Source: Bacillota bacterium
Lineage (GTDB): Bacteria > Bacillota > Clostridia > Christensenellales > WQRI01
Length of the DNA: 64,000 bases
Reading direction: 5' to 3'
Assembly: GCA_009786825.1 (NCBI GenBank)
Contig: WQRI01000001.1
Location: 15,266-79,265, forward strand
Position numbers and translations under genes: made by a program. This document shows, piece by piece, positions 12,705-64,000 of this stretch; positions within the stretch are counted from its first letter, which is position 1, and every line of letters starts with the position of its first letter. The notes under the pieces were generated by a model, which was not told where the DNA came from, made no database searches, and saw only the letters and a list, made by a program, of their open reading frames with translations.

Positions 12705-12888
12705 AAGTAATTCCCCCTGACACATTATCTTAAAATATTTTGTTTAATATTATCAGTTCTAAGTTGTGTTGAATGATGGTGCGCAGGTACGTAAATTTTT
12801 TGACCTTGTGACTACGCCCGCACGCACACTGCTGAATGCTACCTTAAAACTGCGGAGGCACTCAGACAAAAAATTTACATATCAAGCA

Positions 12889-13239: not shown

Positions 13240-13442
13240 AATTTTTCCCCTTGTTTTTTTCGTGTACGTAAACGAATGCCTTACGCCCTTTTATTTGTTT
13301 TTTCGTTTTTTCTTATTTTGTTTTTTCTCGTACGTAAACGAATGCTTTACGTTTTTGTTTTAGTTATTTGTTTTGTGACTTAATCTTTACGTTTTAGGTT
13401 TTGATTTCTGTTTGTTTTTCGAAGTTGCCTATATAAGATAAC

Positions 13443-13790
13443 CTACATAGGTGTTACAATAAACGAGCCGCCTAAGTAATCCCAATTTTGATTAACATCG
13501 CTTGGCTTACTTGCGTTTACCATTTGTGCGCTTACTACATCGCCATTTTTGCTACACGTTTGCATACTAAATAAAAAACTTTTTCCATCACTTATTTCTG
13601 TATGCACAATGTTGCCCCTAGAAGTTGTAACCTTGTCGAATCTCCAGCCCGGCGTATTTACAGCAACTTCACTAAGCCTTGCGTACTCTGCCGTAATAAA
13701 ACTGCTATCGCTTCCGCCACTTATGCCCTCTAGTTGCGTATCACTTACTTCTCGCCCGCCCTCTGGTAAAATTAAATTAGTTTTTTCCAT
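13443..13790 (-). CDS. double-glycine-leader protein, cargo family 4 (first gene of the array)
   Basis: Leader MEKTNLILPEGGREVSDTQLEGISGG|S. Cargo block FITAEYARLSEVAVNTPGW ... VVSAQMVNASKPSDVNQNW. Confidence 0.8.
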   Translation of the reverse strand: MEKTNLILPEGGREVSDTQLEGISGGSDSSFITAEYARLSEVAVNTPGWRFDKVTTSRGNIVHTEISDGKSFLFSMQTCSKNGDVVSAQMVNASKPSDVNQNWDYLGGSFIVTPM

Positions 13791-37207: not shown

Positions 37208-39223
37208 TTAAGACGCTTCCTCTGAGAACTGGCTTTGGTGCAGGCGGGCGTAGTAGCCACCTTTTGCTAGAAGTTGGTTATGGTTGCCTTGTTCTACAAT
37301 GTCGCCGTTGTTTACTACTAGTATTATGTCGGCACTTCTGATTGTGCTTAGGCGGTGGGCAATTACAAATGATGTTCTGCCGCGGGATAGGCTTTGCAGG
37401 GCTTGTTTTATGCTGACTTCTGTGCGCGTGTCTACGCTTGATGTTGCTTCATCTAGTATTATGATTGCGGGGTTGGCTAAAAACACCCTTGCTATTGTAA
37501 GAAGTTGTTTTTGACCGGCAGAGATGTTTGTTGCATCTTCGTTTAGTATTGTGTTGTAGCCATCTGGCATTTTTTCTATGAAGTAGTGGGCTTGGGCTTT
37601 TGTTGCGGCTTTTATAATTTCTTCGTCTGTTGCATCTTCTTTGCCGTAGGCTATGTTGTCGCGTATGCTTCCGTTGAACAGCCACGTGTCTTGCAAAACC
37701 ATACCGAAGCACTTGCGAAGTGTGTAGTGGTCTAGCGTTGAGATGTCTGTGCCATCTAGCGTTATTTTACCGCTGTTAATCTCGTAAAAGCGCATAAGCA
37801 AGTTTACGATTGTGGTTTTGCCAGCACCCGTTGGTCCGACAATTGCTATGGTCTGACCCGCTTTTGCCGTTAGGTTCATATTGTTTATTATAATTTTTTC
37901 TGGCTCGTAGCCGAATGTTACGTTGTTGAATTCTATGTCGCCTTTTATACTTGAGGGTTCAGCGAACAGCGATGAGCGATGAGGTTTTTGGGTTTCTTTA
38001 TTAATTGCGGTCTCCGTTTCAATCTGACCGCTGGTCGCTTCCCGCTGGTCGCTCTTATACTGTTCGCTGGTCGCTGACCGCTGGTCGCTGACAACGTCCG
38101 CTATCTCTTCTTCATCTAGTATCTCAAACACGCGCTCGGCGCTTGCTATTGTGCTTTGTATTACGCCGATTATTTGTGCGGCTTGCGAAATTGGCATTCC
38201 TAGCGTGCGTACGTACTGTACAGACGCTTGAATATCACCCGCGCTTATTCTGCCCGCGCGCAAGTGTATTGCGCCCACAACAACTACAAGCACGTATGTC
38301 ACGTTGGATAAAAAGCGCATAAGGGGCATTATAAGGGCTGTTAAAAACTGGGCGCGCTTGGACGCATCGTATAAGTCTGCGTTTATATTATCGAATTGCT
38401 CTATCGCTTTTTGCTCGTACGAGAATGCTTTTACTACTGTGTGAGAGCCGTACATCTCTTCTATGTGTGCGTTGATTTGACCCGTGTGCATTGCGCTTCG
38501 CTTGAATTGTTTTTGGCTACGCTTTGCTATAAAAGCGGTTGCTAAAAGGGAGATGGGTATGCTTCCAACAACAATTAGCGCAAGCAACCAATGAATTGTA
38601 AACATCATTATTACAGAGCCTACAACTTGTATTACTGCAGAAATTACTTGCAGTAGGGTTTGTTGAAGCGTTGTGCTTATTGTGTCTATGTCGTTGGTCA
38701 TTCGGCTTAGGGTTTCGCCGTAACTGTTTTTGTCGTAGAATTTTAGCGGGACGCGGTCTAGTTTTTGCTTCATCTCGCGGCGCATTCTGAATACTATGCG
38801 CTGAGCCACGCCCGATATTAAAAAAGAGGCGATGTACGATATTATAGAACTTGATGTGTAGAGTATGCCCGCAATTACTAGTAGGCGCACAACGTTTTGT
38901 AGGGTTGATAGCCCTTCCGCCATTAAGAATATATTTGTGGTTGCCTCGCCTGAGATGCGCGGACCAACTATCCAAACGCCCGTGCCGACTATTGTTATAA
39001 AAATTACAAAAGCCAATAGATAAGCCTCGCGCCCCATATATGTTGTGAGACGGCGGAATGTGCCTTTAAAATCTTTTGCCTTTTGCGCAAAGCCCATACC
39101 CGCACGACCAAAGCCCCTAGGTTGCGCTTGCCCCGCCTTTTGTTGCTGGCGGACAAGGTCTAGGTCTTTTTGGTCTTGAGTGTTTTCAGGTTTGCCCTGC
39201 TTGTTGTTTTTATTTTTGCTCAT
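37208..39223 (-). CDS. ABC exporter, fused permease/ATPase (heterodimer partner 2) with an element-derived insertion in the TMD-NBD linker
   Basis: Six-TM exporter fold. Walker A GPTGAGKTT, signature ISAGQKQ, Walker B IIILDEATS. There is no N-terminal C39 peptidase domain. Confidence 0.88.
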   Translation of the reverse strand: MSKNKNNKQGKPENTQDQKDLDLVRQQQKAGQAQPRGFGRAGMGFAQKAKDFKGTFRRLTTYMGREAYLLAFVIFITIVGTGVWIVGPRISGEATTNIFLMAEGLSTLQNVVRLLVIAGILYTSSSIISYIASFLISGVAQRIVFRMRREMKQKLDRVPLKFYDKNSYGETLSRMTNDIDTISTTLQQTLLQVISAVIQVVGSVIMMFTIHWLLALIVVGSIPISLLATAFIAKRSQKQFKRSAMHTGQINAHIEEMYGSHTVVKAFSYEQKAIEQFDNINADLYDASKRAQFLTALIMPLMRFLSNVTYVLVVVVGAIHLRAGRISAGDIQASVQYVRTLGMPISQAAQIIGVIQSTIASAERVFEILDEEEIADVVSDQRSATSEQYKSDQREATSGQIETETAINKETQKPHRSSLFAEPSSIKGDIEFNNVTFGYEPEKIIINNMNLTAKAGQTIAIVGPTGAGKTTIVNLLMRFYEINSGKITLDGTDISTLDHYTLRKCFGMVLQDTWLFNGSIRDNIAYGKEDATDEEIIKAATKAQAHYFIEKMPDGYNTILNEDATNISAGQKQLLTIARVFLANPAIIILDEATSSVDTRTEVSIKQALQSLSRGRTSFVIAHRLSTIRSADIILVVNNGDIVEQGNHNQLLAKGGYYARLHQSQFSEEAS
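37955..38100. repeat. intergenic-type repeat element read through in frame inside the ABC exporter gene
   Basis: GGGTTCAGCGAACAGCGATGAGCGATGAGGTTTTTGGGTT...CTGACCGCTGGTCGCT...CTGTTCGCTGGTCGCTGACCGCTGGTCGCTGAC. The same words occur as in the intergenic copies at 33810-33900, 34230-34380 and 34750-34877 (e.g. GAGCGAACAGCGATGAGTTTTTGGCTT). Confidence 0.75.
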
Positions 39224-39398: not shown

Positions 39399-41150
39399 CT
39401 AGTTCTCTTGTGAGTTTACTATCTCTCTATACACGCTACAACTCTGAAGTAATTGCTCGTTCGTGCCTTGTGAGACTATTTGCCCTTCTTCTAGTACTAT
39501 AATGTTATCTGCTTCTTTTATTGTGGATACGCGCTGGGCTACTATTATTGTGATTGCTTCTTTGCCCGCCTCTCTCTTTGTGGTTTCTGTTTTTAAGTTT
39601 GCGCGTACTTGGGCGTCTGTTGTGTAGTCTAGCGCCGAGAAAGTGTCGTCAAACAAGTATATGCTGGGGCTTCCTACAACTGCGCGCGCTATGCTTAGCC
39701 TTTGCTTTTGCCCACCGCTAAAGTTTTTGCCGCCTTGCGCAACCGGTGCATCTAAGCCTTTTTCTAGCGCGAACTCTGCACTAGCAACATCTAGCGCGTG
39801 TAAAATTTCGCTCTCCGATGCATCTGCCTTACCTACTAAAATGTTGCTTACTATATCACCCTTAAACAGCATTGCTTTTTGAGATGTATAGCCAATTTGG
39901 CTTCTGTAGTCTTTCACGTTAAACTCGCGTATGTTTGTGCCACTTACGCTTATGCTTCCGCTGTCTATATTGTAAAAGCGCATAAGTATATTTGCTAGGG
40001 TTGTTTTTCCGCTTCCGGTCGGACCAATTATTGCTGTGGTTTGCCCCGCGTGCGCGCTAAAACTTATATCTCTAAGGGCTGGTTTGCTTGCGCGCGGATA
40101 TGTAAACGTAACATTTTCAAACACAAGCGTGCCACCGCATAACTCGCCCCGCCCTAAAGGCTTACCGCCGTTGTCGTTAATTTCTGGCTGTATTTTTAAA
40201 ATCTCGTTTATTCTGTTTGCGCTGGCTTGAGAGCGCGGCCATTGTATAAACAGCATAGTGAACATCATAAACGCGAACATAATCTGCATAGAGTACTGGA
40301 ACACGGCGAATACGCGCGCTAGTTCTGCGCGTGAGATTGTCTCGCCCGCATCTACTTGACCTTGTGTTGTGTGCGCCGTTAAAAATATAATGCCTAGTTG
40401 CATTCCAAACATCACAAGCATTGCGACGGGGTTTGTTATGCTGGCTATTCTGTTAACCCTAAGGGTTGTGCGCGTTAGGTTTACGTTGCTCTCGTGAAAG
40501 CGCTGTTGCTCTCTGGCTTGTCTGTTAAAGGCGCGTGTTACGCGTACGCCCGTAAGCCCTTCGCGCGCGACAAGTGTCAGTTTATCTAAGCGCTTTTGAA
40601 TGCGGTTGTACATCGGGAATACCACAAACATAACTGCCGCAACAATCAGTAGCATTATGCCTAGCGCGCCACCTATAACTAGCATATAGTCGCCGCCAAA
40701 CTCGCTTGCGTATATTATACCAAAAACAAAGGTGATAGGGGCGGAAGCCATTGTTGTAAACATCAGCACAAAAAACTGTTGCACTTGCTGAACATCGTTT
40801 GTTGTGCGCGTAATTAGGCTTGCCGTGCCTACTTCATCAAACTCTTTTAGCGAAAAACCCTCTACTTTTTCGAAAACCCTTTTGCGTAAGTTTCTAGAAA
40901 AGCCCACCGCCATTCTAGAAGCAAAAAACGCAACAAACACATTCGCAACAATCGCGCCAAACGCAAGCCCAAACATCCACCCGCCGCGCTCTATAATTTG
41001 CGCAACGCTCTCGTATTCTGTTGCGCCTATTGTTGCCGCCATTCTGCGCGGAAGTTCTAAGTCTAGAAGTGCCGCCGCCGCAACGAAAATAAGTGTCAGC
41101 AACGCTAACACTATTAAACGCGGGGTGAAGATTTTTAAAAGTTTGAACAT
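39399..41150 (-). CDS. ABC exporter, fused permease/ATPase (heterodimer partner 1)
   Basis: Walker A GPTGSGKTT, signature FSGGQKQ, Walker B IYLFDDTFS (a degenerate D instead of E, typical of heterodimeric exporters). Confidence 0.88.
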   Translation of the reverse strand: MFKLLKIFTPRLIVLALLTLIFVAAAALLDLELPRRMAATIGATEYESVAQIIERGGWMFGLAFGAIVANVFVAFFASRMAVGFSRNLRKRVFEKVEGFSLKEFDEVGTASLITRTTNDVQQVQQFFVLMFTTMASAPITFVFGIIYASEFGGDYMLVIGGALGIMLLIVAAVMFVVFPMYNRIQKRLDKLTLVAREGLTGVRVTRAFNRQAREQQRFHESNVNLTRTTLRVNRIASITNPVAMLVMFGMQLGIIFLTAHTTQGQVDAGETISRAELARVFAVFQYSMQIMFAFMMFTMLFIQWPRSQASANRINEILKIQPEINDNGGKPLGRGELCGGTLVFENVTFTYPRASKPALRDISFSAHAGQTTAIIGPTGSGKTTLANILMRFYNIDSGSISVSGTNIREFNVKDYRSQIGYTSQKAMLFKGDIVSNILVGKADASESEILHALDVASAEFALEKGLDAPVAQGGKNFSGGQKQRLSIARAVVGSPSIYLFDDTFSALDYTTDAQVRANLKTETTKREAGKEAITIIVAQRVSTIKEADNIIVLEEGQIVSQGTNEQLLQSCSVYREIVNSQEN

Positions 41151-41435: not shown

Positions 41436-41618
41436 TTTAAAGCCCTAGATGCAAGAAAGCCACTCGCCTTTTGACGCTTTTGCTACGCAAAAGGCTAAAA
41501 CCTTACGGTTTACGGCTCGTCGGAAAGGTGCGCATTTGCGAAGGGCGCGTACTAGGCGTACGCAACTGAGCAAAGCGTAAACCTTGACGCAGTATTGCGC
41601 AGCATATAGGGCTTTAAA
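41436..41618. ncRNA. structured about 180-nt element, copy 1 (candidate ncRNA, leader or MITE)
   Basis: Closing inverted repeat TTTAAAGCCCTA...TAGGGCTTTAAA. Internal hairpins are GCCTTTT..AAAAGGC, AAACC-TTAC-GGTTT, GCGTAC..GTACGC and CGCA-GTAT-TGCG. It is homologous to 47374-47553. Confidence 0.45.
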
Positions 41619-41622
41619 TGTT

Positions 41623-42366
41623 ATGTTTATTGATTTAATAATTGTCGCGGTAATTATTTTGAGCGCTCTGGTTGGTTTTGCCAGAGGTTTTTTGCCTTCC
41701 ATTATGTCTCTTTTTGGGTGGGCTGCTTCTTTAATTATTGCTGTTTGGCTTGGTGGTAGATTTATAGATTTACTAGATAGTTTTTTTGATGTTAGAGAAA
41801 TGGTTTCTGAGGCTTTTATCACGCGTCTTGAGAGTATGAACCCCACGCTTTTTGCACAGCCACCAACAGAAGAAAACATTATTCAGGGGCTTTACGAGTT
41901 TGGGCTACCGGGCTTTATAAATAACTTGCTTGTGCCGGTTTTGTACCCGGGCGACCCGACTGTTGATATAGCGCTATCTCACTTGTTAGGACCAGCACTA
42001 GCAAACATTGTTTTGCGCGTTTTAAGTATGCTTATTTTGTTTACGCTTTTAAGTGTTTTAACCACCCTTTTAAATATGGGCGTAAACAGTTTATTACTAG
42101 ACAGAGATGGCGAGCGCAAAACGCTTGGGCAAGTAGACCGCGCCGTTGGCGTGCTGTTTGGTATTGGGCGCGGAATTGTTATGGTTGTTGCGGGCTTCTT
42201 TATACTAATAATAGCGCTATCTCTTCCGTTTGGTGCCGAGTTCGGTCATAACATAGAGCCGTCTCTAGACCAATCGTTCATCGCCCGCCACGTACTCTAC
42301 AACCTATACGACCAAATAATACAAATGCTAGACCTAGAAAATATTCTTACCAATGTTCAATTTTAG
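41623..42366 (+). CDS. cvpA: CvpA-family membrane protein
   Basis: MFIDLIIVAVIILSALVGFARGFLPSIMSLFGWAASLIIAVWLG is a typical CvpA N-terminus. Start moved to the internal Met. Confidence 0.75.
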   Translation: MFIDLIIVAVIILSALVGFARGFLPSIMSLFGWAASLIIAVWLGGRFIDLLDSFFDVREMVSEAFITRLESMNPTLFAQPPTEENIIQGLYEFGLPGFINNLLVPVLYPGDPTVDIALSHLLGPALANIVLRVLSMLILFTLLSVLTTLLNMGVNSLLLDRDGERKTLGQVDRAVGVLFGIGRGIVMVVAGFFILIIALSLPFGAEFGHNIEPSLDQSFIARHVLYNLYDQIIQMLDLENILTNVQF

Positions 42367-51728: not shown

Positions 51729-51748
51729 ATAGTTATTATGATAACTAT
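51729..51748. promoter_or_regulatory. 20-bp palindrome ATAGTTAT-N4-ATAACTAT upstream of parB
   Basis: ATAGTTATTATGATAACTAT. The same half-sites occur at 53146-53165. Confidence 0.4.
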
Positions 51749-51815
51749 CAGCGTGGGTTTGCAAAATTTTTGGTTTTTAGTTGCTTTTGTACCTGTTTTG
51801 TGCTACAATAAATTT

Positions 51816-52898
51816 ATGAGTAAAAACAGAGGATTGGGCAGGGGGCTAGGTAGCCTTTTTGCCAACACACAAGAAGAATACGAAACACAACTAGAGCAGG
51901 CGAGAGACGACCTATCAAGTGACACGCTTGCTACTATAACTGGGGTATCTCAAACTAAGTCCGGGGGCAATAATAAGGCTAAGTCTAAGGCAGGTACGGG
52001 GGCAGGCGCAAATAATTTGGCTAGCCACTCAAACACCGCAAGTGGTACTACACCCTTAGCATCGGCACACCAAAATGTTTCACGTGAAACATTGGCTGGT
52101 GGCACTAATAATACAAGCGGGGTACAGCAAATATCGCTAAGTTTAATACGCGCAAACAAAAATCAGCCACGCAAAACCTTTAATGATGAGAGGCTGGAAG
52201 AGTTAGCATCATCTATAAAAACTCACGGCGTTATCCAACCCATTTTAGTGCAAAAGAAAGGCGCGGGCTTTGAGATTATAGCGGGTGAGCGACGCTTTAG
52301 GGCTGCGCAATTAACAGAACTAGACTATATCCCTGTAATTGTGCAAAACCTAGAGGCTCAAAGCGCAAAGGAAGTTGCGCTTATAGAAAACCTACAGCGC
52401 GAAGACCTTAACGCTATAGATTCAGCCCTTGCAATACAGTCGCTAATGCAAGAGTTTAGCCTAACACAAGAGACAATCGCAAAAAGAATAGGCAAATCGC
52501 GCCCGGCAGTCGCAAACTTGCTTAGGCTTTTGGGTTTGCCCAAGTTTGTAATGCAGTCGGTTAGAGACGGCACTTTGTCGGCTGGTCACGCAAGAAGCCT
52601 TGCATCTATTTCTGACAGCCAAGCGCAAGTGCGCCTTGCAAAAAAGGCAATAGAGGGCGAGTGGTCTGTGCGCGCGCTAGAGCAAGCGGTTAAAAATTAT
52701 CTAGAGCCGAAGCCAAAAACAAAGGACACGCTAAAACCACCAAAGTCTAAAGAACTTGCAAACCTTGTAAACAACCTAAAGCGCACGCTCTCAACAAAAG
52801 TCTATGCGCTAGGCACAGAAAATAAAGGCAAAATAATAATTGAATACTACAGCACAGACGACCTTGAGAGAATAGAGCAGTTTATGACTGGTAAGTAG
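51816..52898 (+). CDS. parB: chromosome partitioning protein ParB/Spo0J with an N-terminal low-complexity insertion
   Basis: MSKNRGLGRGLGSLF, the QPRK..FNDERLEELASSIKTHGVIQPILV box, GERRFRAA and an HTH (LTQETIAKRIGKSRPAVANLLRLL). The candidate promoter TTGCTT-17-TACAAT ends 6 nt before the ATG. Confidence 0.9.
   Translation: MSKNRGLGRGLGSLFANTQEEYETQLEQARDDLSSDTLATITGVSQTKSGGNNKAKSKAGTGAGANNLASHSNTASGTTPLASAHQNVSRETLAGGTNNTSGVQQISLSLIRANKNQPRKTFNDERLEELASSIKTHGVIQPILVQKKGAGFEIIAGERRFRAAQLTELDYIPVIVQNLEAQSAKEVALIENLQREDLNAIDSALAIQSLMQEFSLTQETIAKRIGKSRPAVANLLRLLGLPKFVMQSVRDGTLSAGHARSLASISDSQAQVRLAKKAIEGEWSVRALEQAVKNYLEPKPKTKDTLKPPKSKELANLVNNLKRTLSTKVYALGTENKGKIIIEYYSTDDLERIEQFMTGK
52076..52091. 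promoter_or_regulatory. parS site (perfect) inside parB
   Basis: TGTTTCACGTGAAACA matches the Firmicute parS consensus TGTTNCACGTGAAACA. Confidence 0.85.
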
Positions 52899-53284: not shown

Positions 53285-53361
53285 GGGTGCATAGCTCAGT
53301 CGGTTAGAGCACCACCCTGATAAGGTGGGGGTCGGTGGTTCGAGTCCACTTGCACCCACCA
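53285..53361 (+). tRNA. tRNA-Ile (anticodon GAU), CCA encoded
   Basis: Manual cloverleaf: acceptor GGGTGCA/TGCACCC, anticodon arm CCACC-CTGATAA-GGTGG, T arm GGTGG-TTCGAGT-CCACT. Confidence 0.9.
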
Positions 53362-53499: not shown

Positions 53500-53576
53500 G
53501 GGGGTGTAGCTCAGTTGGCTAGAGCGCCTGCCTTGCAAGCAGGAGGTCAGCGGTTCGACTCCGCTCATCTCCACCA
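53500..53576 (+). tRNA. tRNA-Ala (anticodon UGC), CCA encoded
   Basis: Acceptor GGGGGTG/CATCTCC with a G3:U70 pair, anticodon arm CCTGC-CTTGCAA-GCAGG, T arm AGCGG-TTCGACT-CCGCT. Confidence 0.9.
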
Positions 53577-57181: not shown

Positions 57182-57395
57182 TGTGGATATGTGGATAACT
57201 TTTGCAATATAATATTAGGTTAATAAAATTAATTGTGTATTAAAATAAAAAACAAAAAAATAGCTAGTAAACAAACAATTTTTAATCAAAAAGTAGCATT
57301 TTTGCACAGTTTTTGGTATAATACTTAAAAAACCAAATGTTAATAACTTTGTGGACAAAGTTTTTCTTCCTTGGGGTTACTCGCACTTATCCACA
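57182..57395. promoter_or_regulatory. DnaA-box cluster in an AT-rich intergenic region
   Basis: TGTGGATAT (57182-57190, 8/9), TGTGGATAA (57190-57198, perfect), TGTGGACAA (57350-57358, 8/9) and TTATCCACA (57387-57395, perfect, opposite orientation). Confidence 0.6.
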
Positions 57396-57543
57396 ACACC
57401 AAATTTCAAAAACCACAAATCAAATTTTAAAACAAACAACACCCCACAACTCAAAAAGTTTTGAAAGGGGGTCTGGGGGAAAACTTTTTCAAAAGTTTTC
57501 CCCCAACAAACAAACCTTCCCCCAAAAAACAATTACAAATACT

Positions 57544-58803
57544 ATGAGAATTAAAAATATAATTTGTGTTAAGGGCGTCTCGGGATATTTTTTTGACGAC
57601 CAAAAAGCTGTTAAGACATCTGCTAAGGCAGATGGAGAATTTTATATTGGTGAAGCTGTTACTAAAGGCTTTTCTAAGGTTAGACAACCGGGGGAATGCG
57701 TTAGTGTTATGCTTATAATGGAGAGCGGGGCAGTTGCTATTGGGGACTGCTGTGCGGTACAATATTCGGGCGCAGGCGGCAGGGATGACCTTTTTAGAGC
57801 GGATAAGTATATTGACGAGATAAAAAAGTATGTGACACCAAAACTAGTGGGTGAGAAAGTAGACAGCTTTAAAAGACTAGCAAAATTGCTGGATAACATT
57901 AGAGTAGGTGGTAAAAGATTACACAAGGCAATAACTTATGGGTTTTCGCAAGCACTATTGAAAGCGGTTGCACTTACGCAACATAATCAGATGGCACAAG
58001 TTGTTGCGAATGAATATGATTTGGAGATAGATTTAGATAACCCACCTAAGATATTGGCACAAAGCGGCGATAATAGATATTTAAATACGGATAAGATGCT
58101 TATAAAACGCGTGGATACACTTCCGCACGCACTTTTTAATACGGTAGATAAGATAGGTAAGAAGGGTGAGAAATTGGAAGAGTATGTGGGCTGGCTTAGA
58201 GAAAGAGTTAAAATACTTAATGACAAAAATTATATGCCAACGTTTCATATAGATGTTTACGGCACAGTTGGTCAGATTTTTGATAACGATATTAAAAAGG
58301 TGGCAAAATATTTAGAAAAATTAGCGGACATTGCACAACCGCATAAACTGTATGTAGAAGGACCGATAGATACGGGGGATAGGGAAAGCACACTAGAAAA
58401 ATTGAGTGGACTAGTAAAAATATTAGATAAGAATAAAAAGGTGAAAATTGTTGCGGACGAGTGGTGTAATACGCTAGAGGATATTAAAGAGTTTGCGGAT
58501 AAAAAAGCGGCACATATGATACAGATAAAAACGCCGGATTTGGGAAGCATATCGAATTCGATAAAGGCGGTGTTATACTGTAAAGAAAAGGGTGTGGAAG
58601 CGTATCTGGGTGGCACGTGTAACGAAACAGACCAATCTGCTAGAGTGTGTGTTCATATAGCAATAGCAACAGCACCACACCTAATAATGTCTAAACCGGG
58701 AATGGGCGTAGATGAAGGGCTTATGATTACAAGAAACGAACTTAATAGAACACTAGCGGTTTTGAAAGAAGAGATGCTAGAGTATGATTTTTACTTAGAC
58801 TAA
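57544..58803 (+). CDS. methylaspartate ammonia-lyase (enolase superfamily)
   Basis: MRIKNIICVKGVSGYFFDDQKAVK...GFSKVRQPGECVSVMLIMESGAVAIGDCCAVQYSGAGGRDDLF closely parallels clostridial MAL (..GFYFDDQ..VRQ.GE..SV.L.L..G....GDC.AVQYSGAGGRD.LF). Start moved to the Met at 57544. Confidence 0.85.
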   Translation: MRIKNIICVKGVSGYFFDDQKAVKTSAKADGEFYIGEAVTKGFSKVRQPGECVSVMLIMESGAVAIGDCCAVQYSGAGGRDDLFRADKYIDEIKKYVTPKLVGEKVDSFKRLAKLLDNIRVGGKRLHKAITYGFSQALLKAVALTQHNQMAQVVANEYDLEIDLDNPPKILAQSGDNRYLNTDKMLIKRVDTLPHALFNTVDKIGKKGEKLEEYVGWLRERVKILNDKNYMPTFHIDVYGTVGQIFDNDIKKVAKYLEKLADIAQPHKLYVEGPIDTGDRESTLEKLSGLVKILDKNKKVKIVADEWCNTLEDIKEFADKKAAHMIQIKTPDLGSISNSIKAVLYCKEKGVEAYLGGTCNETDQSARVCVHIAIATAPHLIMSKPGMGVDEGLMITRNELNRTLAVLKEEMLEYDFYLD

Positions 58804-58898
58804 AACGCTTAAACTATATGGAATTGGTCGACAGAAAAAATAAATTCTGCGGGGTGTTTTTTTGGCGGGCTTTATTTAAAAGCCGGTCACGTAAAGAT

Positions 58899-61214
58899 AT
58901 GAAACTGATAAAAATACCTAATGAAAAGTACGATGAGTATAGACTTGATGTGATTTTTAAAGCATACAAGTGGGACCCACAGTATATAGACAGAAATACT
59001 GTGGGTAATTTTGTTTTGGTGCTGAAAGAGAGTGAGGTTAAAGAATTAGAGAGACTAACGCAAGAGTTATATAACGAGACTGTGGCGGCAGAAAATGTGA
59101 TATTAAAAGATGATGGGCTTATAAAAAAACTTAAACTGCCACGAAAAATCAGAAAGCATATAAATAAGTCTAAACAGGCTTACACCAAAGAGAGCCATAT
59201 AAGGCTAATGAGATTTGACTTTCACCCGATAGAGAGTGGTGTAGAAAACGAAAATGTAAAAACTGGCGCAACGGGTGCGGTAGTTAATGGGTCAGAAATT
59301 ACAAACGCAACGGGCAAGACAAACACCCAAACACAATGTCCATCTAAAAGGTGGGCTATAAGTGAAGTTAACTCTGATGTGCCGGGCGGCTTTGCAGAGG
59401 CTAGCATTCTGCCAGATTTAGTTAACGAAGTGCTGGGCGGGGTGTTTGCAAAACCCAAAAATTTTGCAAGGGTGCTTGTGGATAGTTTTTTAGAAAAGAC
59501 TAATAGCGGGGACACAATTGCTATAAACCATTGCACGTGCTTTAGCGACGACAGACAACCTATGCAACTTATAGGCGATATGCTAGAGCAAAGTGATAGG
59601 CACGCGCTGTATTGTGCGGCAGACCATATCGTATTTAAAGAAAGGCAAGCATATAGTATACTAGATGGCAATGAAGGGCGTGTGGACGCGTTTTTTCGGT
59701 TTATACCGCTAGAATGGATGCTTAAACTGCCAAAAATGTGGGCGGGCTATTTTGATACTAGCACGCCAAGTTGTAATCACCCGGTAGCCGTATTTTTTCA
59801 GACAAAGCGTGTAGCACTTATTTTTGACGAACTTATAAGGCGGGGCGTAAACCTAGAGTGGTGGAAAAAACTGCTTCCGCATACAGTTAAAGCGCGCGGT
59901 AGGGTAGACAATAAAAAAGATTACATATATAAAATTGCGTTTGGCAGAACGGGCGAGAATATATCCATTAAAGAGGCGCTAAAACCAAAAGACTATAACC
60001 AGATTGTGAGAGAGGCGCTGTTAAGACCAAAACACTACATAAAGCAAAAGCGGTTTATAAGTAAGCCCGTTAGGTCTGAGTGCGGGGCAGAGTATCACGT
60101 GTGTATCGGCACGTATATTGTAGAGGGCAAACTTGCGGGAATGTATTCTAGAATATCGCCCACCGCGCTTATCGGCAGCAGTAGTATTGAAGTTCCGATT
60201 TTGGTAGAGCGTGAGAGTGAGCAAGGTGGGCAAGGAGAGCAAGGTGGGCAAGGTGGGGGGGAACTTTTACCAGATTGTAAAAGTTTCCCCCCACACCCCC
60301 CTTCAAAAGAATCGGGTAGGGTAGAGTTTGGGGCTACGACAGCAAAGCAAAAAGAGAGTGAGAGCGTAAGCAAAAATAGAGAGAGTAGCGATAAAGAGAT
60401 TTTTAAGTTGTGGACACCCAAGGGTTGCGTATGGAGTCCGTGGGTTTTGCCCGTGCCGTTTGTTAACATAAAGCAAAGCGCAGAATATGCCGTTAGTTTA
60501 GATACAGAGCATTGCACTAAATGGGCTGAGAGAATTGTTGCTAAAAGAAGTGTTGCCCCGATAAAAGTTGTCCCAAAAGGTGTGGCTAAAAAAAATGTTA
60601 CCCCTAGTAATGTGGCTATTATAATAGACGAGTGCGCGCAAGACAGTTTTGGTATGGGTATGGCGCTTTACGCACTATACAAAAATGGTAGTGGGGATAA
60701 TGTAGATATTAATAGTGATATTAAGGGGGGCTTCAGAGCAATTCCGTCGTTTTCTGGCACAAAACAGCCAAAGGGCGCAAAGGCTACAACCAACAACGAG
60801 ATTGTAGAAAGCCTTTTGTTGCAAGCCACAGAGTTATTGAAAAGGGATAACTTAAATAGGGTAGAAGCGCCCGCAGAGAACACAAGCGCTTTGGTTGGGG
60901 AAGCACCCACGCAAACAGAAATACCCACACCAGTTTTTATGCTAGATAGTAACCGCCTAAACAAAAAGCGTAGCATAAAAATATTTGATAACTCTTACGA
61001 TACGCTACCGCAAGATTATCCAAGCGCCGCTTTTTTTAAACAGCAGGGTATAGACACAATAGTTGTTAAAACACGAAAACTTCAAAGGGATATAAAACTT
61101 GTGCTTTATAGGCTTCAAAAAGATGGAATGAAAATTTTACACTTAAAGCCAAACAAAGAAAAACCAAAAAGGGTAAGGCTTATAAAAATATTCAAATGGC
61201 ACATAGCGCTATAG
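58899..61214 (+). CDS. glutathionylspermidine-synthase-like (YgiC/YjfC-type) ATP-grasp ligase fused to an uncharacterised C-terminal domain of about 330 aa
   Basis: VLKESEVKELERLTQELYNETVAAENVILKDDGLIKKLKLPRKI ... IRLMRFDFHP ... WAISEVNSDVPGGFAEAS parallels the GspS/YgiC layout (RxDxxxD...LE.NADTP...EA). The linker is EQGGQGEQGGQGGGELLPDCKSFPPHPP. The start is ambiguous (58818 or 58899). Confidence 0.65.
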   Translation: MKLIKIPNEKYDEYRLDVIFKAYKWDPQYIDRNTVGNFVLVLKESEVKELERLTQELYNETVAAENVILKDDGLIKKLKLPRKIRKHINKSKQAYTKESHIRLMRFDFHPIESGVENENVKTGATGAVVNGSEITNATGKTNTQTQCPSKRWAISEVNSDVPGGFAEASILPDLVNEVLGGVFAKPKNFARVLVDSFLEKTNSGDTIAINHCTCFSDDRQPMQLIGDMLEQSDRHALYCAADHIVFKERQAYSILDGNEGRVDAFFRFIPLEWMLKLPKMWAGYFDTSTPSCNHPVAVFFQTKRVALIFDELIRRGVNLEWWKKLLPHTVKARGRVDNKKDYIYKIAFGRTGENISIKEALKPKDYNQIVREALLRPKHYIKQKRFISKPVRSECGAEYHVCIGTYIVEGKLAGMYSRISPTALIGSSSIEVPILVERESEQGGQGEQGGQGGGELLPDCKSFPPHPPSKESGRVEFGATTAKQKESESVSKNRESSDKEIFKLWTPKGCVWSPWVLPVPFVNIKQSAEYAVSLDTEHCTKWAERIVAKRSVAPIKVVPKGVAKKNVTPSNVAIIIDECAQDSFGMGMALYALYKNGSGDNVDINSDIKGGFRAIPSFSGTKQPKGAKATTNNEIVESLLLQATELLKRDNLNRVEAPAENTSALVGEAPTQTEIPTPVFMLDSNRLNKKRSIKIFDNSYDTLPQDYPSAAFFKQQGIDTIVVKTRKLQRDIKLVLYRLQKDGMKILHLKPNKEKPKRVRLIKIFKWHIAL

Positions 61215-61263: not shown

Positions 61264-61292
61264 TTGACTTACAATTAAAAATATAGTATAAT
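61264..61292 (+). promoter_or_regulatory. consensus sigma-A promoter of the E2-like gene
   Basis: TTGACT-17 nt-TATAAT, then the SD AGGGGGT and the ATG at 61345. Confidence 0.7.
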
Positions 61293-61344
61293 AGGTTCGG
61301 CACGGCAGTAAAAGTAAATATTTATTAGATGGCAGGGGGTGCGT

Positions 61345-64000
61345 ATGGCACAGTACGATATAAATAAAACCAAAGGTAAGGTAAGACCTACGGCAGAGAG
61401 TGATAGTAAAGAAGCAAAGGCAAGCAAGGCAGTATTTGAAAGCCAGCGTGCTAAGTTTTTGGCTGCCTCTCACGGAATAGATGCGGGGCTTATAAAGCCA
61501 ACGGGCAAGGGCAAAAAAATTACAGAGCAAGATGTTGTTGCATATTTAAAAACGGGCAGAAAGGCAGAAGAGCAAGCAAAAAAGACAGCAGAAAAAGAGC
61601 AAGAAAAAGCAAGGCTTGCAAGTATGAGCAAAGCAGAAAGAGACGCCCTAAAAGAAGCAGAGAAAAAAGAAAAACAGCGCCTAGCAAAAGAAGCAGAAAA
61701 GCAAAAAAAGGCTGCAGAAAAAGTAAGAAAAGAAATAGAGGCGGCAGAAATAGCGCTTAAAGAAAGACAAAAAGGCAAGCGTGGCGCACTAAGTGCAGCG
61801 GCCGCAAGAAAAGAATTAGAAAAGGCAAAGAAAGAAGCAGACAAAGAAAAGAAAGAAGCAGCAAAGGCTGCTAAGGCTGTAAAGGCAACTAAGGGGGTAA
61901 CTAAAGAGACAGCAAAGGTAGCAACTAAGGTAGAAACCAAGGGGGCAAGTAAGGCGACTAGTAAAGCAAGTGAGACCAAGGCTGATACAAATGTTGCTAG
62001 CGAGATTAACGAAGCAAACGTGGCTAGTGAGATTAAGAGTGCTAGTGAGACAAAGGAAGCAAGCGTTAAGCAAATTATAAGCGGGGTGTCTACAACGGCA
62101 GAGAGCGTAGAGATAGATGTTGCTAGTGAACTTTTTGCTGATGTTCAGCGAGTGGCGGCAAAGGGTGGCTTTAAAAAACTAGATGAGAGTGAAATAGCAA
62201 GCGAGCAGTCTGCTGAGCAAGAAATTAACGAAGCACAAGATGTAGATAATGAAGCCCAAGCAATAGAAACAGAGCAAGATATTGTAGCCGAGAAACAAGC
62301 ACAAGTTGCAGAAGTAGAGAGTGAAACGCAAACGGAAACGGAAGCACAAATTATAGAAAATGAGAATGAAATAGAAGCCCAAACTGAAGTACAAGATGCA
62401 GAAAAAGAACAAGAAGTTGCAACAGAAACTGAGACACAAACAATAGAAAAAGAGCAAGTGGCAGAGCCACAAGAGAGTGCTAGAGAAAGCACAACAGATA
62501 GTGGCGACCTTTTTGCTGATGTTCAGCGCGTGGCTGCTAAGGGTGGTTTTAAGGGCTTAGAAGGCAAAGAAAATGAAGGGGCAGAGCAAGCAAGCGAGAT
62601 TGAAAGGCTAAAACAGCAACTAGAGCAACTGCAAAAAGAGAAAGAAGAAGCCTACAAAAAAGCAGAGGAAATAGCAAAAAGAGAGCAAGAGCAACTAGAA
62701 AAAGAAAGGCACCAGAGGGCAGAGCAAGAGAGAGAGGAAAAAGAGCAAGCCGAAAAATTAGAAGCAGAGAGGCTAGAAAAAGAAAAGGCAGAAAGAGAGA
62801 GAATAGAGCGCGATAAAAAAGAAAAAGAGAGATTAGAGCAAGAAAAAAACGAGCAAGAAAGGTTAGAAAAAGAAAAGGCGGAAGCAGAAAGACAAGAGCA
62901 AGAGAGGCAAGAAAAAGAAAAATTAAAGAAAGAGTTAGAAGCGATAGAGGCAGAAAAGTTGGCAATGCGCCTAGAGTATGAGAGGCGTGAGCAAGAAAGG
63001 CTAGAAAAAGAAAGCCAAGAAAGAGACAGGATAGACGCCCTGCGCCAAGAAAAAGAAAGGCAAGAGAGAGAAAAACTAGAGCAAGAAAAGAATGAGTTAG
63101 AGCGCCAACTAGAAGCAGAAAGAGAGCGCACAAAAGAGTTAGAGCGCCAAAAACAGCAAGAGAGACAGCACCTAGATGAACTAGCAAGGCTAGCAAGTTT
63201 GGCAAACGAGCAAGCGGTAGAGCATAGCGCGCAAGACCAGCCTACAGATGATAGGACAGAGAATGAAATAGGCGAGCAAGATGCAGATACCTTAGCAGAC
63301 TATGTGGACACAGATATAAGCGACGACGACACTACAAGCCAAGACCCAACTACAGACACCGACACATCAGAGAACGAAGCCGAGACACTTGTGTTAAAGC
63401 GCGACGACCTAAACCTAGAAGCCCTAAACAAAATAGAGCATAAAACAATGCAGGTTACTGTAGATGTGTCTAAACTGATAGAGTGGCTAGAAGACAAAAA
63501 AGAGCAAGGCATAACGCTTGATAACGTTGTGCTAAGCGTTGTCTCACGCGCGCTAGATACCCACCCGCAATTTAACGCAAGCCTAGAAGGCGCACACACA
63601 AAGCACCAACCAGACATCAACTTAGGCTATACAATACAAGTTAACGGCAACTCTAAAACAATTGTTATACCAGACTGTCGCGACAAAAACGTAGAGCAAA
63701 TTGCAAGCGAGTTATCAGCAATAAAAATGCTTTACGAAGTGGGCGAGAGTCTAAGCCAAACCCCGCCGACATTTACTGTGGTCTCCCTATCAGACTACGG
63801 CATAGAAAGTTTTAAGCCAGACATCGCGGGCAACAATGTTGCGGCACTAGGCGTTGGGGCTGTGGGCGTAAAAATAAAAGTAGAGGGCGGCTCTACTGTG
63901 CCGTACCCATCAGTTAACCTAACCTTAAGTTACAACCCGCTAGGCATAAACGACTTTCAAGCCGCACAATTTATGAAAACCATAAGCACTACGTTAAATG
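61345..64000 (+). CDS. E2 (2-oxoacid dehydrogenase acyltransferase)-like protein: a PSBD, a charged linker of roughly 680 aa and a catalytic-fold domain lacking the active-site His; 3' end outside the window
   Basis: Hand translation (not in the ORF track because it is open-ended): MAQYDINKTKGK...SQRAKFLAASHGIDAGLIKPTGKGKKITEQDVVAYL is the E3-binding domain. A very long E/K/Q-rich tract follows. The C-terminal LDNVVLSVVSRALDTHPQFNASLEG...TFTVVSLSDYGIESF...VNLTLSYNPLGINDFQAAQF aligns to E2 catalytic domains, with NPL..ND in place of DHR..DG. Confidence 0.75.
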   Translation, partial: MAQYDINKTKGKVRPTAESDSKEAKASKAVFESQRAKFLAASHGIDAGLIKPTGKGKKITEQDVVAYLKTGRKAEEQAKKTAEKEQEKARLASMSKAERDALKEAEKKEKQRLAKEAEKQKKAAEKVRKEIEAAEIALKERQKGKRGALSAAAARKELEKAKKEADKEKKEAAKAAKAVKATKGVTKETAKVATKVETKGASKATSKASETKADTNVASEINEANVASEIKSASETKEASVKQIISGVSTTAESVEIDVASELFADVQRVAAKGGFKKLDESEIASEQSAEQEINEAQDVDNEAQAIETEQDIVAEKQAQVAEVESETQTETEAQIIENENEIEAQTEVQDAEKEQEVATETETQTIEKEQVAEPQESARESTTDSGDLFADVQRVAAKGGFKGLEGKENEGAEQASEIERLKQQLEQLQKEKEEAYKKAEEIAKREQEQLEKERHQRAEQEREEKEQAEKLEAERLEKEKAERERIERDKKEKERLEQEKNEQERLEKEKAEAERQEQERQEKEKLKKELEAIEAEKLAMRLEYERREQERLEKESQERDRIDALRQEKERQEREKLEQEKNELERQLEAERERTKELERQKQQERQHLDELARLASLANEQAVEHSAQDQPTDDRTENEIGEQDADTLADYVDTDISDDDTTSQDPTTDTDTSENEAETLVLKRDDLNLEALNKIEHKTMQVTVDVSKLIEWLEDKKEQGITLDNVVLSVVSRALDTHPQFNASLEGAHTKHQPDINLGYTIQVNGNSKTIVIPDCRDKNVEQIASELSAIKMLYEVGESLSQTPPTFTVVSLSDYGIESFKPDIAGNNVAALGVGAVGVKIKVEGGSTVPYPSVNLTLSYNPLGINDFQAAQFMKTISTTLN

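What the first reader, a model, noticed from the sequence alone, without database searches (positions are those of the whole stretch)
61345..64000. E2 acyltransferase-like pseudoenzyme: a PSBD, a charged linker of roughly 680 aa and a His-less catalytic domain, missed by the ORF track
The plus-strand ORF from 61345 is open to the window end, so it was not listed. The listed minus-strand ORFs at 61470-63620 are its antisense shadows. It has its own perfect TTGACT-17-TATAAT promoter.
- It has no lipoyl domain.
- It has a clear E3-binding domain (SHGIDAGLIKPTGKGKKITEQDVVAYL).
- An extraordinarily long E/K/Q/A-rich segment follows, with two copies of a 16-aa motif ((E/D)LFADVQRVAAKGGFK; DNA repeats at 62131-62174 and 62509-62552) and REQE/KEKE coiled-coil-like repeats.
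- The E2 catalytic fold comes last, and the DHRxxDG active-site motif reads NPLGIND there.

E2 cores self-assemble into 24- or 60-mers. A catalytically dead core decorated with long charged arms and E3-binding domains suggests a scaffold or compartment-like assembly rather than an enzyme.
Basis: partly seen in the sequence, partly recalled or inferred. Interest (0 to 1): 0.65.

Follow-up and report, generated by a model that had tools for sequence, protein, structure and literature searches.

The report
Dead E2-like trimer hub with long arms
An uncultured spore-forming Bacillota bacterium encodes an 886-residue relative of the pyruvate-dehydrogenase E2 core that has lost its lipoyl domain, both catalytic residues and the tail needed to build large cages, so it most likely acts as a non-enzymatic three-armed tether rather than an enzyme or a compartment shell.

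Summary
One open frame runs from 61345 to the window end. The source contig shows the gene is 886 aa, so only one codon and the stop lie outside the window. It has a near-consensus promoter and a ribosome-binding site.

Pfam finds a weak E3_binding domain (PSBD, aa 36-64) and a solid 2-oxoacid_dh core (aa 692-884). An AlphaFold model of the core (pLDDT 88) matches solved E2 cores at TM about 0.8. No lipoyl domain, E1 or E3 occurs in any frame across 71 kb.

The active site is dismantled: His to Pro865 and Ser/Thr to Val813.

- The core ends right after its last helix and lacks the C-terminal "knob" that links trimers into 24- or 60-mers. A trimer is therefore more likely than a cage.
- The REQE/KEKE block has no heptad signal and looks like an ER/K single alpha-helix, not a coiled coil.

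The duplicated 15-aa motif differs only by synonymous changes, so the peptide is under selection.

No orthologue exists in any collection searched. Looser analogues (PSBD plus a His-less core) sit next to E3 or E1 genes, which suggests a bacterial E3BP-like recruiting role. I rate it a new variant of a known kind, of moderate interest.

The parts
61264..61292 (+). Sigma-70-type promoter, TTGACT (61264-61269), 17-nt spacer, TATAAT (61287-61292)
   Evidence: Sequence read. Consensus scan gives 11 of 12 matches (L001 12447-12475 equals window 61264-61292). This is a consensus match only; no expression data exist.
61334..61347 (+). Ribosome-binding site AGGGGG (61334-61339), 5-nt spacer, ATG start (61345-61347)
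   Evidence: Read directly from the sequence.
61345..64000 (+). Coding sequence of the 886-aa E2-like protein. Codons 1-885 are in the window; codon 886 (Val) and the TAA stop lie just beyond it.
61441..61548 (+). PSBD-like (E3_binding) domain, aa 33-68
   Evidence: Pfam PF02817 covers aa 36-64 at 24.9 bits, cut-off 23.7. A custom HMM hits aa 33-66 and scores above all N-terminal shuffles. By hand alignment, two of the three Arg used by the Geobacillus PSBD to bind E1/E3 are Lys here and one is Ala.
61555..61944 (+). Basic K/A/E-rich block, aa 71-200, net charge +17. The first ~90 aa are helix-like and ER/K-like; the rest is K/A/T-rich.
   Evidence: Composition and salt-pair density.
61945..62130 (+). 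S/T/A/E-rich low-complexity spacer, aa 201-262
62131..62175 (+). Motif copy 1, LFADVQRVAAKGGFK (aa 263-277)
62179..62508 (+). Acidic E/Q/T/A block, aa 279-388, net charge -33
62509..62553 (+). Motif copy 2, LFADVQRVAAKGGFK (aa 389-403). It differs from copy 1 at 5 nucleotides, all third-position and synonymous.
   Evidence: P about 6e-4 that 5 random changes are all synonymous, while the flanks are only 10-17% identical.
62605..63264 (+). ER/K-rich block, aa 421-640, with a 10-aa (30-nt) repeat. Predicted to be a single alpha-helix spacer, about 30 nm if fully helical.
   Evidence: 30-nt spacing of repeat family D1. E+K+R 56%, hydrophobic 13.6%, 0.46 opposite-charge i/i+3,4 pairs per residue, no heptad signal. 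The helical state is inferred, not modelled.
63265..63414 (+). Acidic D/T-rich junction, aa 641-690, net charge -16
   Evidence: This part has low pLDDT in the model.
63415..64000 (+). E2-type (CAT-like) core domain, aa 691-886, catalytically dead and lacking the C-terminal knob helix
   Evidence: Pfam PF00198, 72 bits. AF2 pLDDT 88, pTM 0.81. Foldseek top hits are E2 cores such as 4n72, 3mae and 6zzn, with TM 0.78-0.80. Tail length.
63781..63783 (+). Val813 at the position of the catalytic Ser/Thr (GGTFTxxNLG reads PPTFTVVSLS)
   Evidence: the column is T70/S58 in the 150 nearest relatives.
63934..63954 (+). NPLGIND (aa 864-870) in place of DHRxxDG. Pro865 replaces the catalytic His.
   Evidence: the column is His in 126 of 141 aligned relatives.

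Best explanation
The gene encodes a non-catalytic descendant of a 2-oxoacid-dehydrogenase E2 subunit that works as a three-armed tether.

Core: the C-terminal CAT-like domain folds like an E2 core and most likely forms the obligate homotrimer of that fold. It cannot transfer acyl groups, because the catalytic His is Pro, the catalytic Ser/Thr is Val, and the flanking Asp, Arg and Gly are also replaced.

Assembly: because the protein lacks the C-terminal knob helix, the trimers probably do not join into 24- or 60-mers.

Arms: each subunit projects an arm of about 620 residues built of charge blocks. These are, in order:
- a basic K/A/E block;
- an S/T-rich spacer;
- an acidic E/Q block flanked by two copies of a selected 15-aa peptide;
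- an ER/K single alpha-helix of about 200 residues;
- an acidic D/T junction.

Tip: each arm ends in a PSBD-like domain. The PSBD, and probably the two peptide motifs, recruit client proteins. By analogy with its nearest analogues, the clients would be an E3-type flavoprotein or an E1-type ThDP enzyme encoded elsewhere in the genome. The spacer would hold them tens of nanometres from the hub.

What is shown and what is inferred:
- Shown: domain identities, loss of the catalytic residues, absence of a lipoyl domain, absence of the knob, selection on the motif, and the lack of a heptad pattern.
- Inferred: the trimeric state, the single-helix state of the ER/K block, and the identity of the clients.
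For: Domains and fold.

Dead active site.

No lipoyl domain, E1 or E3 in six frames of 71 kb.

Missing knob: together with bioRxiv 10.1101/2020.07.24.212647 and PMC12995895. These papers state that the core is an obligate CAT-like trimer and that 24-/60-mers depend on the C-terminal helix.

ER/K block without heptads. SAH properties come from PMC5347031, PMC4183817 and PMC5378345.

The gene looks functional: an intact 886-codon frame, a promoter and an RBS, and only synonymous differences between the motif copies.

Analogues with a PSBD and a His-less, lipoyl-less core are co-encoded with PSBD clients:
- P0092, the NJ sister in 122 of 200 bootstraps, overlaps the start of a full E3 gene.
- P0075 precedes an E3-type gene.
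- P0202 precedes a fused E1 alpha-beta gene.
- P0157 follows a transketolase-C-like 3' end.

P0075 and P0202 also have unusually long acidic PSBD-to-core spacers of about 100 aa, against the usual short linker.
Against: No E1, E3 or lipoyl protein gene lies within 61 kb upstream or 7 kb downstream, so the client is unknown and may not be a dehydrogenase component at all.

The PSBD match is marginal (24.9 bits), and one of the three canonical basic contact residues is Ala.

No orthologue was found anywhere. Conservation of the architecture therefore cannot be tested, and the protein is known from a single MAG lineage.

The oligomeric state and the helicity of the spacer are not modelled. The sister relation to P0092 could be long-branch attraction. 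Overall the query is no closer to His-less relatives than to His-bearing ones (26.2% against 27.0% identity).
Confidence: 0.5

Rival explanations
1. One reading: the dead core self-assembles into a 24- or 60-mer shell decorated with charged arms and PSBDs, forming a scaffold or compartment-like particle.
For: The core fold is that of cage-forming E2s. Trimer-based cages are the norm for this family.
Against: The C-terminal trimer-trimer interaction helix is absent. The tail is 10 aa against a median of 16 and is the shortest of 145 relatives. Loss or re-orientation of this helix gives trimers in Corynebacterium E2p. 24-60 arms of 620 highly charged residues around a small core would also be sterically and electrostatically demanding (inference).
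Confidence: 0.08
2. A substitution model like mammalian E3BP: the dead subunit does not act alone but joins trimers or cores formed by a genuine E2 encoded elsewhere, adding a specialised PSBD on a very long arm.
For: Mammalian E3BP is an inactive E2 paralogue that substitutes for E2 in the core (PMC10156792). The analogues P0092, P0075 and P0202 sit in E3/E1 gene clusters.
Against: No E2, E1 or E3 gene is found in 71 kb around the gene. The core is at most about 30-34% identical to any E2 in 1.84 billion representatives, which makes mixed trimers less likely. The knob needed to integrate into a cage is missing.
Confidence: 0.12
3. A repurposed structural protein unrelated to 2-oxoacid dehydrogenases. 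The K/A-rich basic block (histone-H1-like composition) and the PSBD-like helical module would bind a polyanion such as DNA, RNA or polyphosphate, or another cellular structure. The trimeric core and ER/K helix would serve as spacer and cross-linker.
For: Net +17 K/A/T-rich block at aa 71-200. Orphan genomic location with its own promoter. The PSBD match is only marginal. SAH domains can themselves bind DNA or microtubules (PMC10335832, PMC4571873).
Against: Most of the arm is strongly acidic (net -33, -16, -16). The closest analogues are all linked to E3/E1 genes. No nucleic-acid-binding domain was detected.
Confidence: 0.13
4. A decaying or neutrally drifting remnant of an E2 gene in a lineage that lost its dehydrogenase complex, with expanded low-complexity repeats and no maintained function.
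For: There is no orthologue anywhere and the sequence is extremely divergent. All catalytic features are lost. The low-complexity repeats could expand by slippage.
Against: A 2.66-kb frame without a stop in a 42% GC genome. A near-consensus promoter and RBS. A confidently folded core (pLDDT 88). Five of five differences between the motif copies are synonymous while the flanks have diverged.
Confidence: 0.07
5. It is still an acyltransferase that uses other residues or another acceptor, as distant CAT-superfamily members do.
For: The CoA-dependent acyltransferase fold is retained.
Against: Both the general-base His and the oxyanion Ser/Thr are replaced by residues that cannot substitute (Pro, Val). 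The surrounding conserved residues are also replaced: D to N, R to L, G to D, N to S, and GG to PP. There is no lipoyl domain to deliver a substrate.
Confidence: 0.04

Closest known systems
E2 dihydrolipoamide acyltransferase cores of PDH/OGDH/BCKDH complexes (Pfam PF00198 with PF02817 and PF00364), e.g. E. coli AceF (PDB 4n72), Listeria E2 (3mae), M. tuberculosis E2b (6zzn)
   Same: The same order of PSBD followed by a C-terminal CAT-like core. The core model superposes at TM 0.78-0.80 and rmsd about 2-2.6 A. Pfam scores are above the gathering thresholds.
   Different: No lipoyl domain. Catalytic His, Ser/Thr, Asp and Arg are replaced. There is no C-terminal knob helix. The PSBD-to-core spacer is about 583 aa by my HMM-offset measure, about twice the longest (300) among 230 relatives. 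The gene is not in an E1/E3 operon.
Eukaryotic E3-binding protein (E3BP / protein X) of mitochondrial PDH
   Same: An E2 paralogue whose core has lost the catalytic His and which serves to recruit a peripheral enzyme through its PSBD (PMC10156792). Human E3BP (6h60) is among the sequence and fold matches.
   Different: E3BP keeps a lipoyl domain and lives inside or within an E2 core. This protein is bacterial, lacks the lipoyl domain, is not detectably closer to E3BP than to ordinary E2s, and has no E2 partner in view. Any similarity would be convergent.
Uncharacterised bacterial 'PSBD + His-less core' proteins found here (P0092, P0075, P0202, P0157, P0215, P0129)
   Same: Lipoyl-less, with a PSBD and a His-less core. 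P0075 and P0202 have long acidic spacers. P0092 shares Val at the Ser/Thr site, LSD[YF], HPQFNASL and [ND]FQxAxFM with the query and is its NJ sister.
   Different: They are 270-430 aa and mostly keep a hydrophobic C-terminal tail. Where context is available, they abut E3 or E1 genes. The query is 886 aa, tail-less and an orphan. Identity is only about 27%.
Trimer-only E2p of Corynebacterium glutamicum (PDB 6zzi)
   Same: An E2 core in which the canonical knob-and-socket contact between trimers is disabled, giving a trimeric hub.
   Different: In Corynebacterium the helix is present but folds back in cis because of a 3-residue insertion, and the enzyme is active and lipoylated. Here the helix is simply absent and the enzyme is dead.
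ER/K single alpha-helix (SAH) domains, e.g. in myosins, INCENP, CAF-1
   Same: E/K/R-rich composition, dense i to i+3/i+4 opposite-charge pairs, few hydrophobic residues, no heptads, and a position between two functional modules as a spacer (PMC5347031, PMC4183817, PMC5378345).
   Different: Not shown experimentally here. Q and L are more frequent than in classic SAHs, there is a 10-residue repeat, and at about 200 residues it would be among the longer examples.

Membership tests
Functional E2 acyltransferase of a 2-oxoacid dehydrogenase complex | At least one N-terminal lipoyl domain (PF00364) carrying the lipoyl-lysine | tested here: not met
   No PF00364 hit. A custom lipoyl HMM finds nothing in six frames of the window plus L001. 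The upstream gene is unrelated.
Functional E2 acyltransferase of a 2-oxoacid dehydrogenase complex | Peripheral subunit-binding domain (PF02817) | tested here: met
   24.9 bits against a cut-off of 23.7, aa 36-64. The same residues are found by an independent HMM and score above all N-terminal shuffles. The signal is weak.
Functional E2 acyltransferase of a 2-oxoacid dehydrogenase complex | C-terminal CAT-like catalytic domain fold (PF00198) | tested here: met
   72 bits, E 5e-20. AF2 pLDDT 88. TM about 0.8 to E2 cores.
Functional E2 acyltransferase of a 2-oxoacid dehydrogenase complex | Catalytic His in DHRxxDG and Ser/Thr in (T/S)xxNLG | tested here: not met
   His is Pro865, Ser/Thr is Val813, and Asp, Arg and Gly are also replaced.
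Functional E2 acyltransferase of a 2-oxoacid dehydrogenase complex | C-terminal 3-10 'knob' helix for trimer-trimer contacts (24-/60-mer) | tested here: not met
   The tail after the conserved Phe is 10 aa against a median of 16, the shortest of 145. The true stop codon is seen in L001.
Functional E2 acyltransferase of a 2-oxoacid dehydrogenase complex | Encoded with E1 and/or E3 genes | tested here: not met
   None is found by Pfam in any ORF of 150 aa or more in the window, nor by phmmer in six frames. The rest of the genome was not available.
E3-binding protein (E3BP), criteria of PMC10156792 | Domain topology as in E2 (lipoyl, PSBD, core) | tested here: not met
   The lipoyl domain is absent.
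E3-binding protein (E3BP), criteria of PMC10156792 | Catalytically inactive acetyltransferase-homologous core (no His) | tested here: met
E3-binding protein (E3BP), criteria of PMC10156792 | E3-specific PSBD that binds E3 | not testable with these tools
   Two of the three basic contact positions are kept as Lys and one is Ala (hand alignment to the Geobacillus PSBD, from my own knowledge). No E3 gene is available to model against.
E3-binding protein (E3BP), criteria of PMC10156792 | Orthology with the eukaryotic mitochondrial E3BP lineage | tested here: not met
   The host is bacterial (Bacillota MAG). E3BP 6h60 ranks below many ordinary E2s in both sequence and fold searches.
ER/K single alpha-helix (SAH) domain | E/K/R-rich sequence with dense i,i+4 salt-bridge pattern and no hydrophobic heptad seam | tested here: met
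   E+K+R 56%, 0.46 pairs per residue, hydrophobic 13.6%, a/d occupancy 27%, 3.5-period power 0.13.
ER/K single alpha-helix (SAH) domain | Monomeric, stable helix in solution | not testable with these tools
   This needs CD, SAXS or AUC.
Bacterial lipoyl-less, His-less 'PSBD + dead core' proteins (undescribed class seen here) | PSBD plus His-less core, no lipoyl domain | tested here: met
Bacterial lipoyl-less, His-less 'PSBD + dead core' proteins (undescribed class seen here) | Gene adjacent to E3 or E1 | tested here: not met
   The analogues are adjacent to such genes. The query is not.

The most novel reading that the evidence does not exclude
The protein is a free-standing trivalent scaffold of a kind not described in bacteria. 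A dead E2 trimer would carry three ~620-residue block-polyampholyte arms (blocks of +17, -33, -16 and -16 net charge, plus an ER/K helix). These arms would self-associate or phase-separate and, through the PSBD tips and six copies of a selected 15-aa docking peptide, concentrate client enzymes into a membraneless assembly. In effect this would be an E3BP-like recruiter that has left the dehydrogenase complex altogether.
Probability: 0.1. Interest if true: 0.75.

Novelty: new variant of a known kind. Interest (0 to 1): 0.5.

Why it matters
Non-catalytic E2 paralogues that recruit partners are textbook only for eukaryotic mitochondria (E3BP). In bacteria the single PSBD of E2 is thought to serve both E1 and E3.

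This gene, and the looser set of bacterial PSBD-plus-dead-core proteins found next to E3 or E1 genes while chasing it, suggest that bacteria have also repeatedly turned E2 into a pure recruiting module.

The present case is the extreme. It has no lipoyl domain, no active site, no cage-forming tail, and a spacer of about 620 residues that includes what would be one of the longer natural ER/K helices. If the hub-and-tether model holds, it gives a compact natural example of how a multienzyme core is exapted into a spacing device, and a defined 15-residue peptide to fish for partners.

The value is limited because the protein is known from one uncultured lineage with no orthologues.

Tried and rejected
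**Searches that found nothing or were uninformative**
- Full-length homology search: swamped by E/K low-complexity matches, so uninformative.
- Word-indexed search with the core alone: no hit.
- Exhaustive phmmer of the core against 1.84 billion representatives: 2827 E2-family hits, none better than 75 bits or 34% identity, and no self hit. The exact protein is not in the 15-billion collection.
- Scans with the core of GTDB genomes, JGI metagenomes and IMG/VR: no relative.
- GTDB scan with the MAAL neighbour, to place the organism and test synteny: nothing.
- Degenerate DNA search for the motif in metagenomes and viral contigs: nothing. The motif is also absent from all fetched proteins and loci.
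- Profile search with the dead-core class: returned mainly canonical Chloroflexota-type E2s. It was useful only as an MSA source.
- The second contig carrying the neighbourhood has the same proteins, so it gives no diverged orthologue. The NCBI MAG protein P0339 is not on record for context.

**Structure and alignment attempts**
- Single-sequence AF2 of the core: pLDDT 44, discarded.
- Full-length MSA (A3): MAFFT aligned the homologues' PSBDs to the acidic junction instead of the true PSBD, so I did not use it for prediction.

**Analyses that did not support an idea**
- A Biopython NJ run with bootstraps timed out. I replaced it with a numpy NJ.
- The hydrophobic moment of the motif is only mildly above shuffles (8% of shuffles reach it), so I make no claim of a membrane-binding amphipathic helix.

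**Ideas rejected**
- A frame error or two genes: a single frame links both Pfam domains with no stop.
- A lipoyl domain upstream in another frame: none is found.
- An intact His elsewhere: the alignments are unambiguous.
- A mobile-element or phage origin: the neighbours are housekeeping and sporulation genes.


Full report

Frame 1 from 61345 is open for 885 codons to the window end. An exact-match look-up of the upstream neighbour returned the source contig, ENA ERZ27257340 k141_953906 (187 kb; L001). There the gene is called at 886 aa. Translation shows ...TISTTLNV followed by TAA, so the window misses one codon and the stop.

The promoter is TTGACT-17-TATAAT at 61264-61292, with 11 of 12 matches. 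An AGGGGG ribosome-binding site sits 5 nt before the ATG.

Eight minus-strand ORFs overlap the gene. The two largest have no Pfam hit. The plus frame carries Pfam domains at both ends, so the minus-strand ORFs are shadows of a purine-rich coding strand.

**2. Domains**

Pfam gives 2-oxoacid_dh (PF00198) at aa 692-884, with 72.4 bits and E 4.9e-20. It gives E3_binding (PF02817) at aa 36-64 with 24.9 bits, just above the 23.7 cut-off. NCBIfam E2 equivalogs match far below their cut-offs.

Because the PSBD call is marginal, I built a PSBD HMM from homologues. It hits the same residues (33-66) at 15.4 bits, against a maximum of 10.1 in 2000 shuffles of the N-terminal 90 residues. The signal is weak but real.

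No lipoyl domain is detected in the protein. A lipoyl HMM finds nothing in any frame of the window plus L001. The upstream gene is a GSP_synth-like protein, so the refutation criterion of a lipoyl domain upstream in another frame fails.

With a 111-sequence MSA, AlphaFold2 models aa 660-885 at pLDDT 88.1 and pTM 0.81, above 90 from aa ~700 onwards. Foldseek against the PDB returns only E2 cores at the top: E. coli 4n72, Listeria 3mae, Mtb E2b 6zzn and A. vinelandii 1dpb, with TM 0.78-0.80 and rmsd about 2-2.6 A. Human E3BP 6h60 appears lower down.

**3. The active site is dismantled**

Alignments to PDB E2 chains place lsYNPLGINDf against lsfDHRviDG. In an alignment with the 150 nearest relatives from an exhaustive search, the key columns compare as follows:

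| Position in canonical E2 | Relatives (of 141 aligned) | Query |
|---|---|---|
| Catalytic His | H in 126 | Pro865 |
| Catalytic Ser/Thr | T in 70, S in 58 | Val813 |
| Asp of DHRxxDG | D in 131 | Asn |
| Arg of DHRxxDG | R in 120 | Leu |
| Gly of DHRxxDG | G in 127 | Asp |
| GGTFTxxNLG | consensus | PPTFTVVSLS |

The roles of Ser558, His610 and Asn614 in A. vinelandii E2p are established knowledge; the titles of PDB entries 1dpb/1dpc/1dpd name them. The protein is therefore a pseudoenzyme.

**4.

The query ends directly after the last helix. After the conserved Phe of aAxF(L/M) it has 10 residues. The median in 145 relatives is 16 and the 5th percentile is 13.2, so the query's tail is the shortest of all.

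Two papers bear on this:
- E2 cores are obligate CAT-like homotrimers, and 24-, 42- and 60-mers all depend on a C-terminal hydrophobic 3-10 helix that inserts into a pocket of the neighbouring trimer. When this contact is disabled, as in Corynebacterium E2p, the protein stays trimeric (bioRxiv 10.1101/2020.07.24.212647).
- In Mtb E2b the inserted helix is aa 387-393 of 393, and in human E2p it is aa 642-647 of 647 (PMC12995895).

The alignment to 6zzn puts the query's end about two residues before that helical turn. I therefore infer a trimer and not a cage. This is an inference, because the oligomer was not modelled.

**5. The spacer**

The stretch between the PSBD and the core is about 620 aa, not about 680. 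It consists of the following blocks:
- aa 71-200: K/A/E-rich, net +17.
- aa 201-262: S/T/A-rich.
- aa 263-277: motif copy 1.
- aa 279-388: E/Q/T-rich, net -33.
- aa 389-403: motif copy 2.
- aa 421-640: ER/K-rich.
- aa 641-690: D/T-rich, net -16.

The ER/K block has a 30-nt (10-aa) repeat. It has 56% E+K+R, 13.6% hydrophobic residues and 0.46 opposite-charge i/i+3,4 pairs per residue. There is no 3.5-residue periodicity, and a/d occupancy is at best 27%. That is the signature of a single alpha-helix (SAH) spacer rather than a coiled coil (PMC5347031, PMC4183817, PMC5378345). If fully helical, it would span about 30 nm.

By my HMM-offset measure the spacer is about 583 aa. That is about twice the longest value (300 aa, in the canonical E2 P0138) among 230 relatives with both domains. 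The usual linker is far shorter.

**6. The motif**

LFADVQRVAAKGGFK occurs twice and nowhere else in the window, the fetched loci or the 337 fetched proteins. It is also absent from JGI metagenomes and IMG/VR under a fully degenerate back-translation.

The two copies differ at five nucleotides, all third-position and synonymous. The chance of that under random substitution is about 6e-4. The 30 residues on either side are only 10-17% identical. The peptide itself is therefore under selection, as expected for a docking motif. Its amphipathicity is unremarkable.

**7. Relatives and context**

No orthologue exists in any collection searched, and the exact protein is not in the 15-billion-protein collection. 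The best hits are ordinary E2s at 30-34% identity.

About a tenth of the 150 nearest relatives lack the His. Six of these also lack a lipoyl domain but keep a PSBD: P0075, P0092, P0129, P0157, P0202 and P0215.

The query is not globally closer to the His-less set (26.2% against 27.0% identity). Its NJ sister in 122 of 200 bootstraps is P0092. P0092 shares Val at the Ser/Thr site, LSD[YF], HPQFNASL and [ND]FQxAxFM with the query.

Where context could be fetched, the analogues sit beside genes for proteins that PSBDs normally bind:
- P0092 overlaps the start of a full E3 gene.
- P0075 precedes an E3-type flavoprotein gene.
- P0202 precedes an 814-aa fused E1 alpha-beta gene.
- P0157 follows a transketolase-C-like 3' end.

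P0075 and P0202 also have acidic spacers of about 100 aa.

The query's neighbourhood is unrelated. Upstream lie a DUF2207 membrane protein, methylaspartate ammonia-lyase and a GSP_synth-like protein. Downstream lie an AXE1 esterase, signal peptidase, DegV, PrmA and GerA. No E1, E3 or lipoyl protein is found in 71 kb.

The host is an uncultured spore-former. YabP, YabQ and GerA are present, and its MAAL is at least 90% identical to a protein from an NCBI 'Bacillota bacterium' MAG.

**8. Interpretation**

The best-supported model is a non-catalytic, probably trimeric E2-derived hub. Its three long, charge-patterned and partly rigid arms end in PSBD-like domains, and each arm carries two copies of a selected docking peptide. 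In effect it is a tether for client proteins. By analogy with the analogues these would be an E3- or E1-type enzyme encoded elsewhere.

- Shown: the domains, the dead site, the absence of a lipoyl domain, the absence of the knob, the selected motif and the lack of heptads.
- Inferred: the trimer, the SAH state and the clients.

Rivals, in order:
1. A repurposed structural or polyanion-binding protein.
2. An E3BP-like substitute subunit within a real E2 core.
4. A decaying relic.
5. A residual enzyme.

**9. Comparison and novelty**

It works most like eukaryotic E3BP, a dead E2 paralogue that recruits a partner via its PSBD (PMC10156792). It fails E3BP membership because it has no lipoyl domain, is bacterial and shows no specific affinity to the E3BP lineage. 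It also fails the definition of a functional E2 on four of six features.

Four literature searches found no described bacterial counterpart; the library is limited to open-access texts.

I rate it a new variant of a known kind. Interest is moderate (0.5). The architecture is striking, and the wider class of bacterial dead-core PSBD proteins next to E3/E1 deserves a survey. This particular gene, however, is a singleton from one MAG lineage, with no partner in view.

Noticed in passing
window 9318-13790 (-): Eight tandem small ORFs (115-152 aa, about 500-bp spacing) share an N-terminal leader of the form NLVLP-x-x-G-x-E...QMQxIEGGS, with invariant L, P, G and GG. Their C-terminal parts are divergent and none has a Pfam hit. 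This looks like an array of double-glycine-leader peptide or bacteriocin precursors. Two ABC exporters (37208-39223 and 39399-41150, minus strand) and a CvpA gene (41584-42366, plus strand) lie 24-28 kb away.
   Followed up: partly
L005 10001-12255; L003 332-2399; L002 8001-11744; L006 3-976: A recurrent, apparently undescribed bacterial gene pair: a lipoyl-less, His-less E2-like protein (PSBD plus dead core) directly adjacent to an E3 gene (P0092, P0075), a fused E1 alpha-beta gene (P0202) or a transketolase-C-like gene (P0157). It may be a bacterial analogue of E3BP.
   Followed up: partly
window 57337-61214 (+): The methylaspartate ammonia-lyase has a ~69-aa N-terminal extension. It is followed 15 nt later by a 798-aa protein whose only Pfam hit is the glutathionylspermidine-synthase pre-ATP-grasp domain, with an internal GGQGEQGGQGGG linker. 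This is an unusual pairing, with no other glutamate-fermentation genes nearby.
   Followed up: no
window 28364-33760 (-): A 1798-aa Ala/Thr-rich predicted lipoprotein (N-terminal ...LAACGNG lipobox) with no Pfam family at E <= 1e-4.
   Followed up: no
window 3485-7213 (-): A 1242-aa L/E/K/Q-rich protein with no Pfam hit at E <= 1e-4. By eye, its N-terminus resembles SbcC/Rad50-type ATPases.
   Followed up: no
P0138: A canonical, His-bearing, lipoylated E2 of 739 aa with a ~300-320-aa extremely acidic PSBD-to-core linker. Very long acidic linkers are therefore not restricted to dead cores.
   Followed up: no
window 53285-53358 and 53500-53573 (+): Two tRNA genes are the only Rfam gathering-level hits in the window. 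parB (51738-52898) and yabP/yabQ lie nearby, which suggests an origin-proximal region.
   Followed up: no
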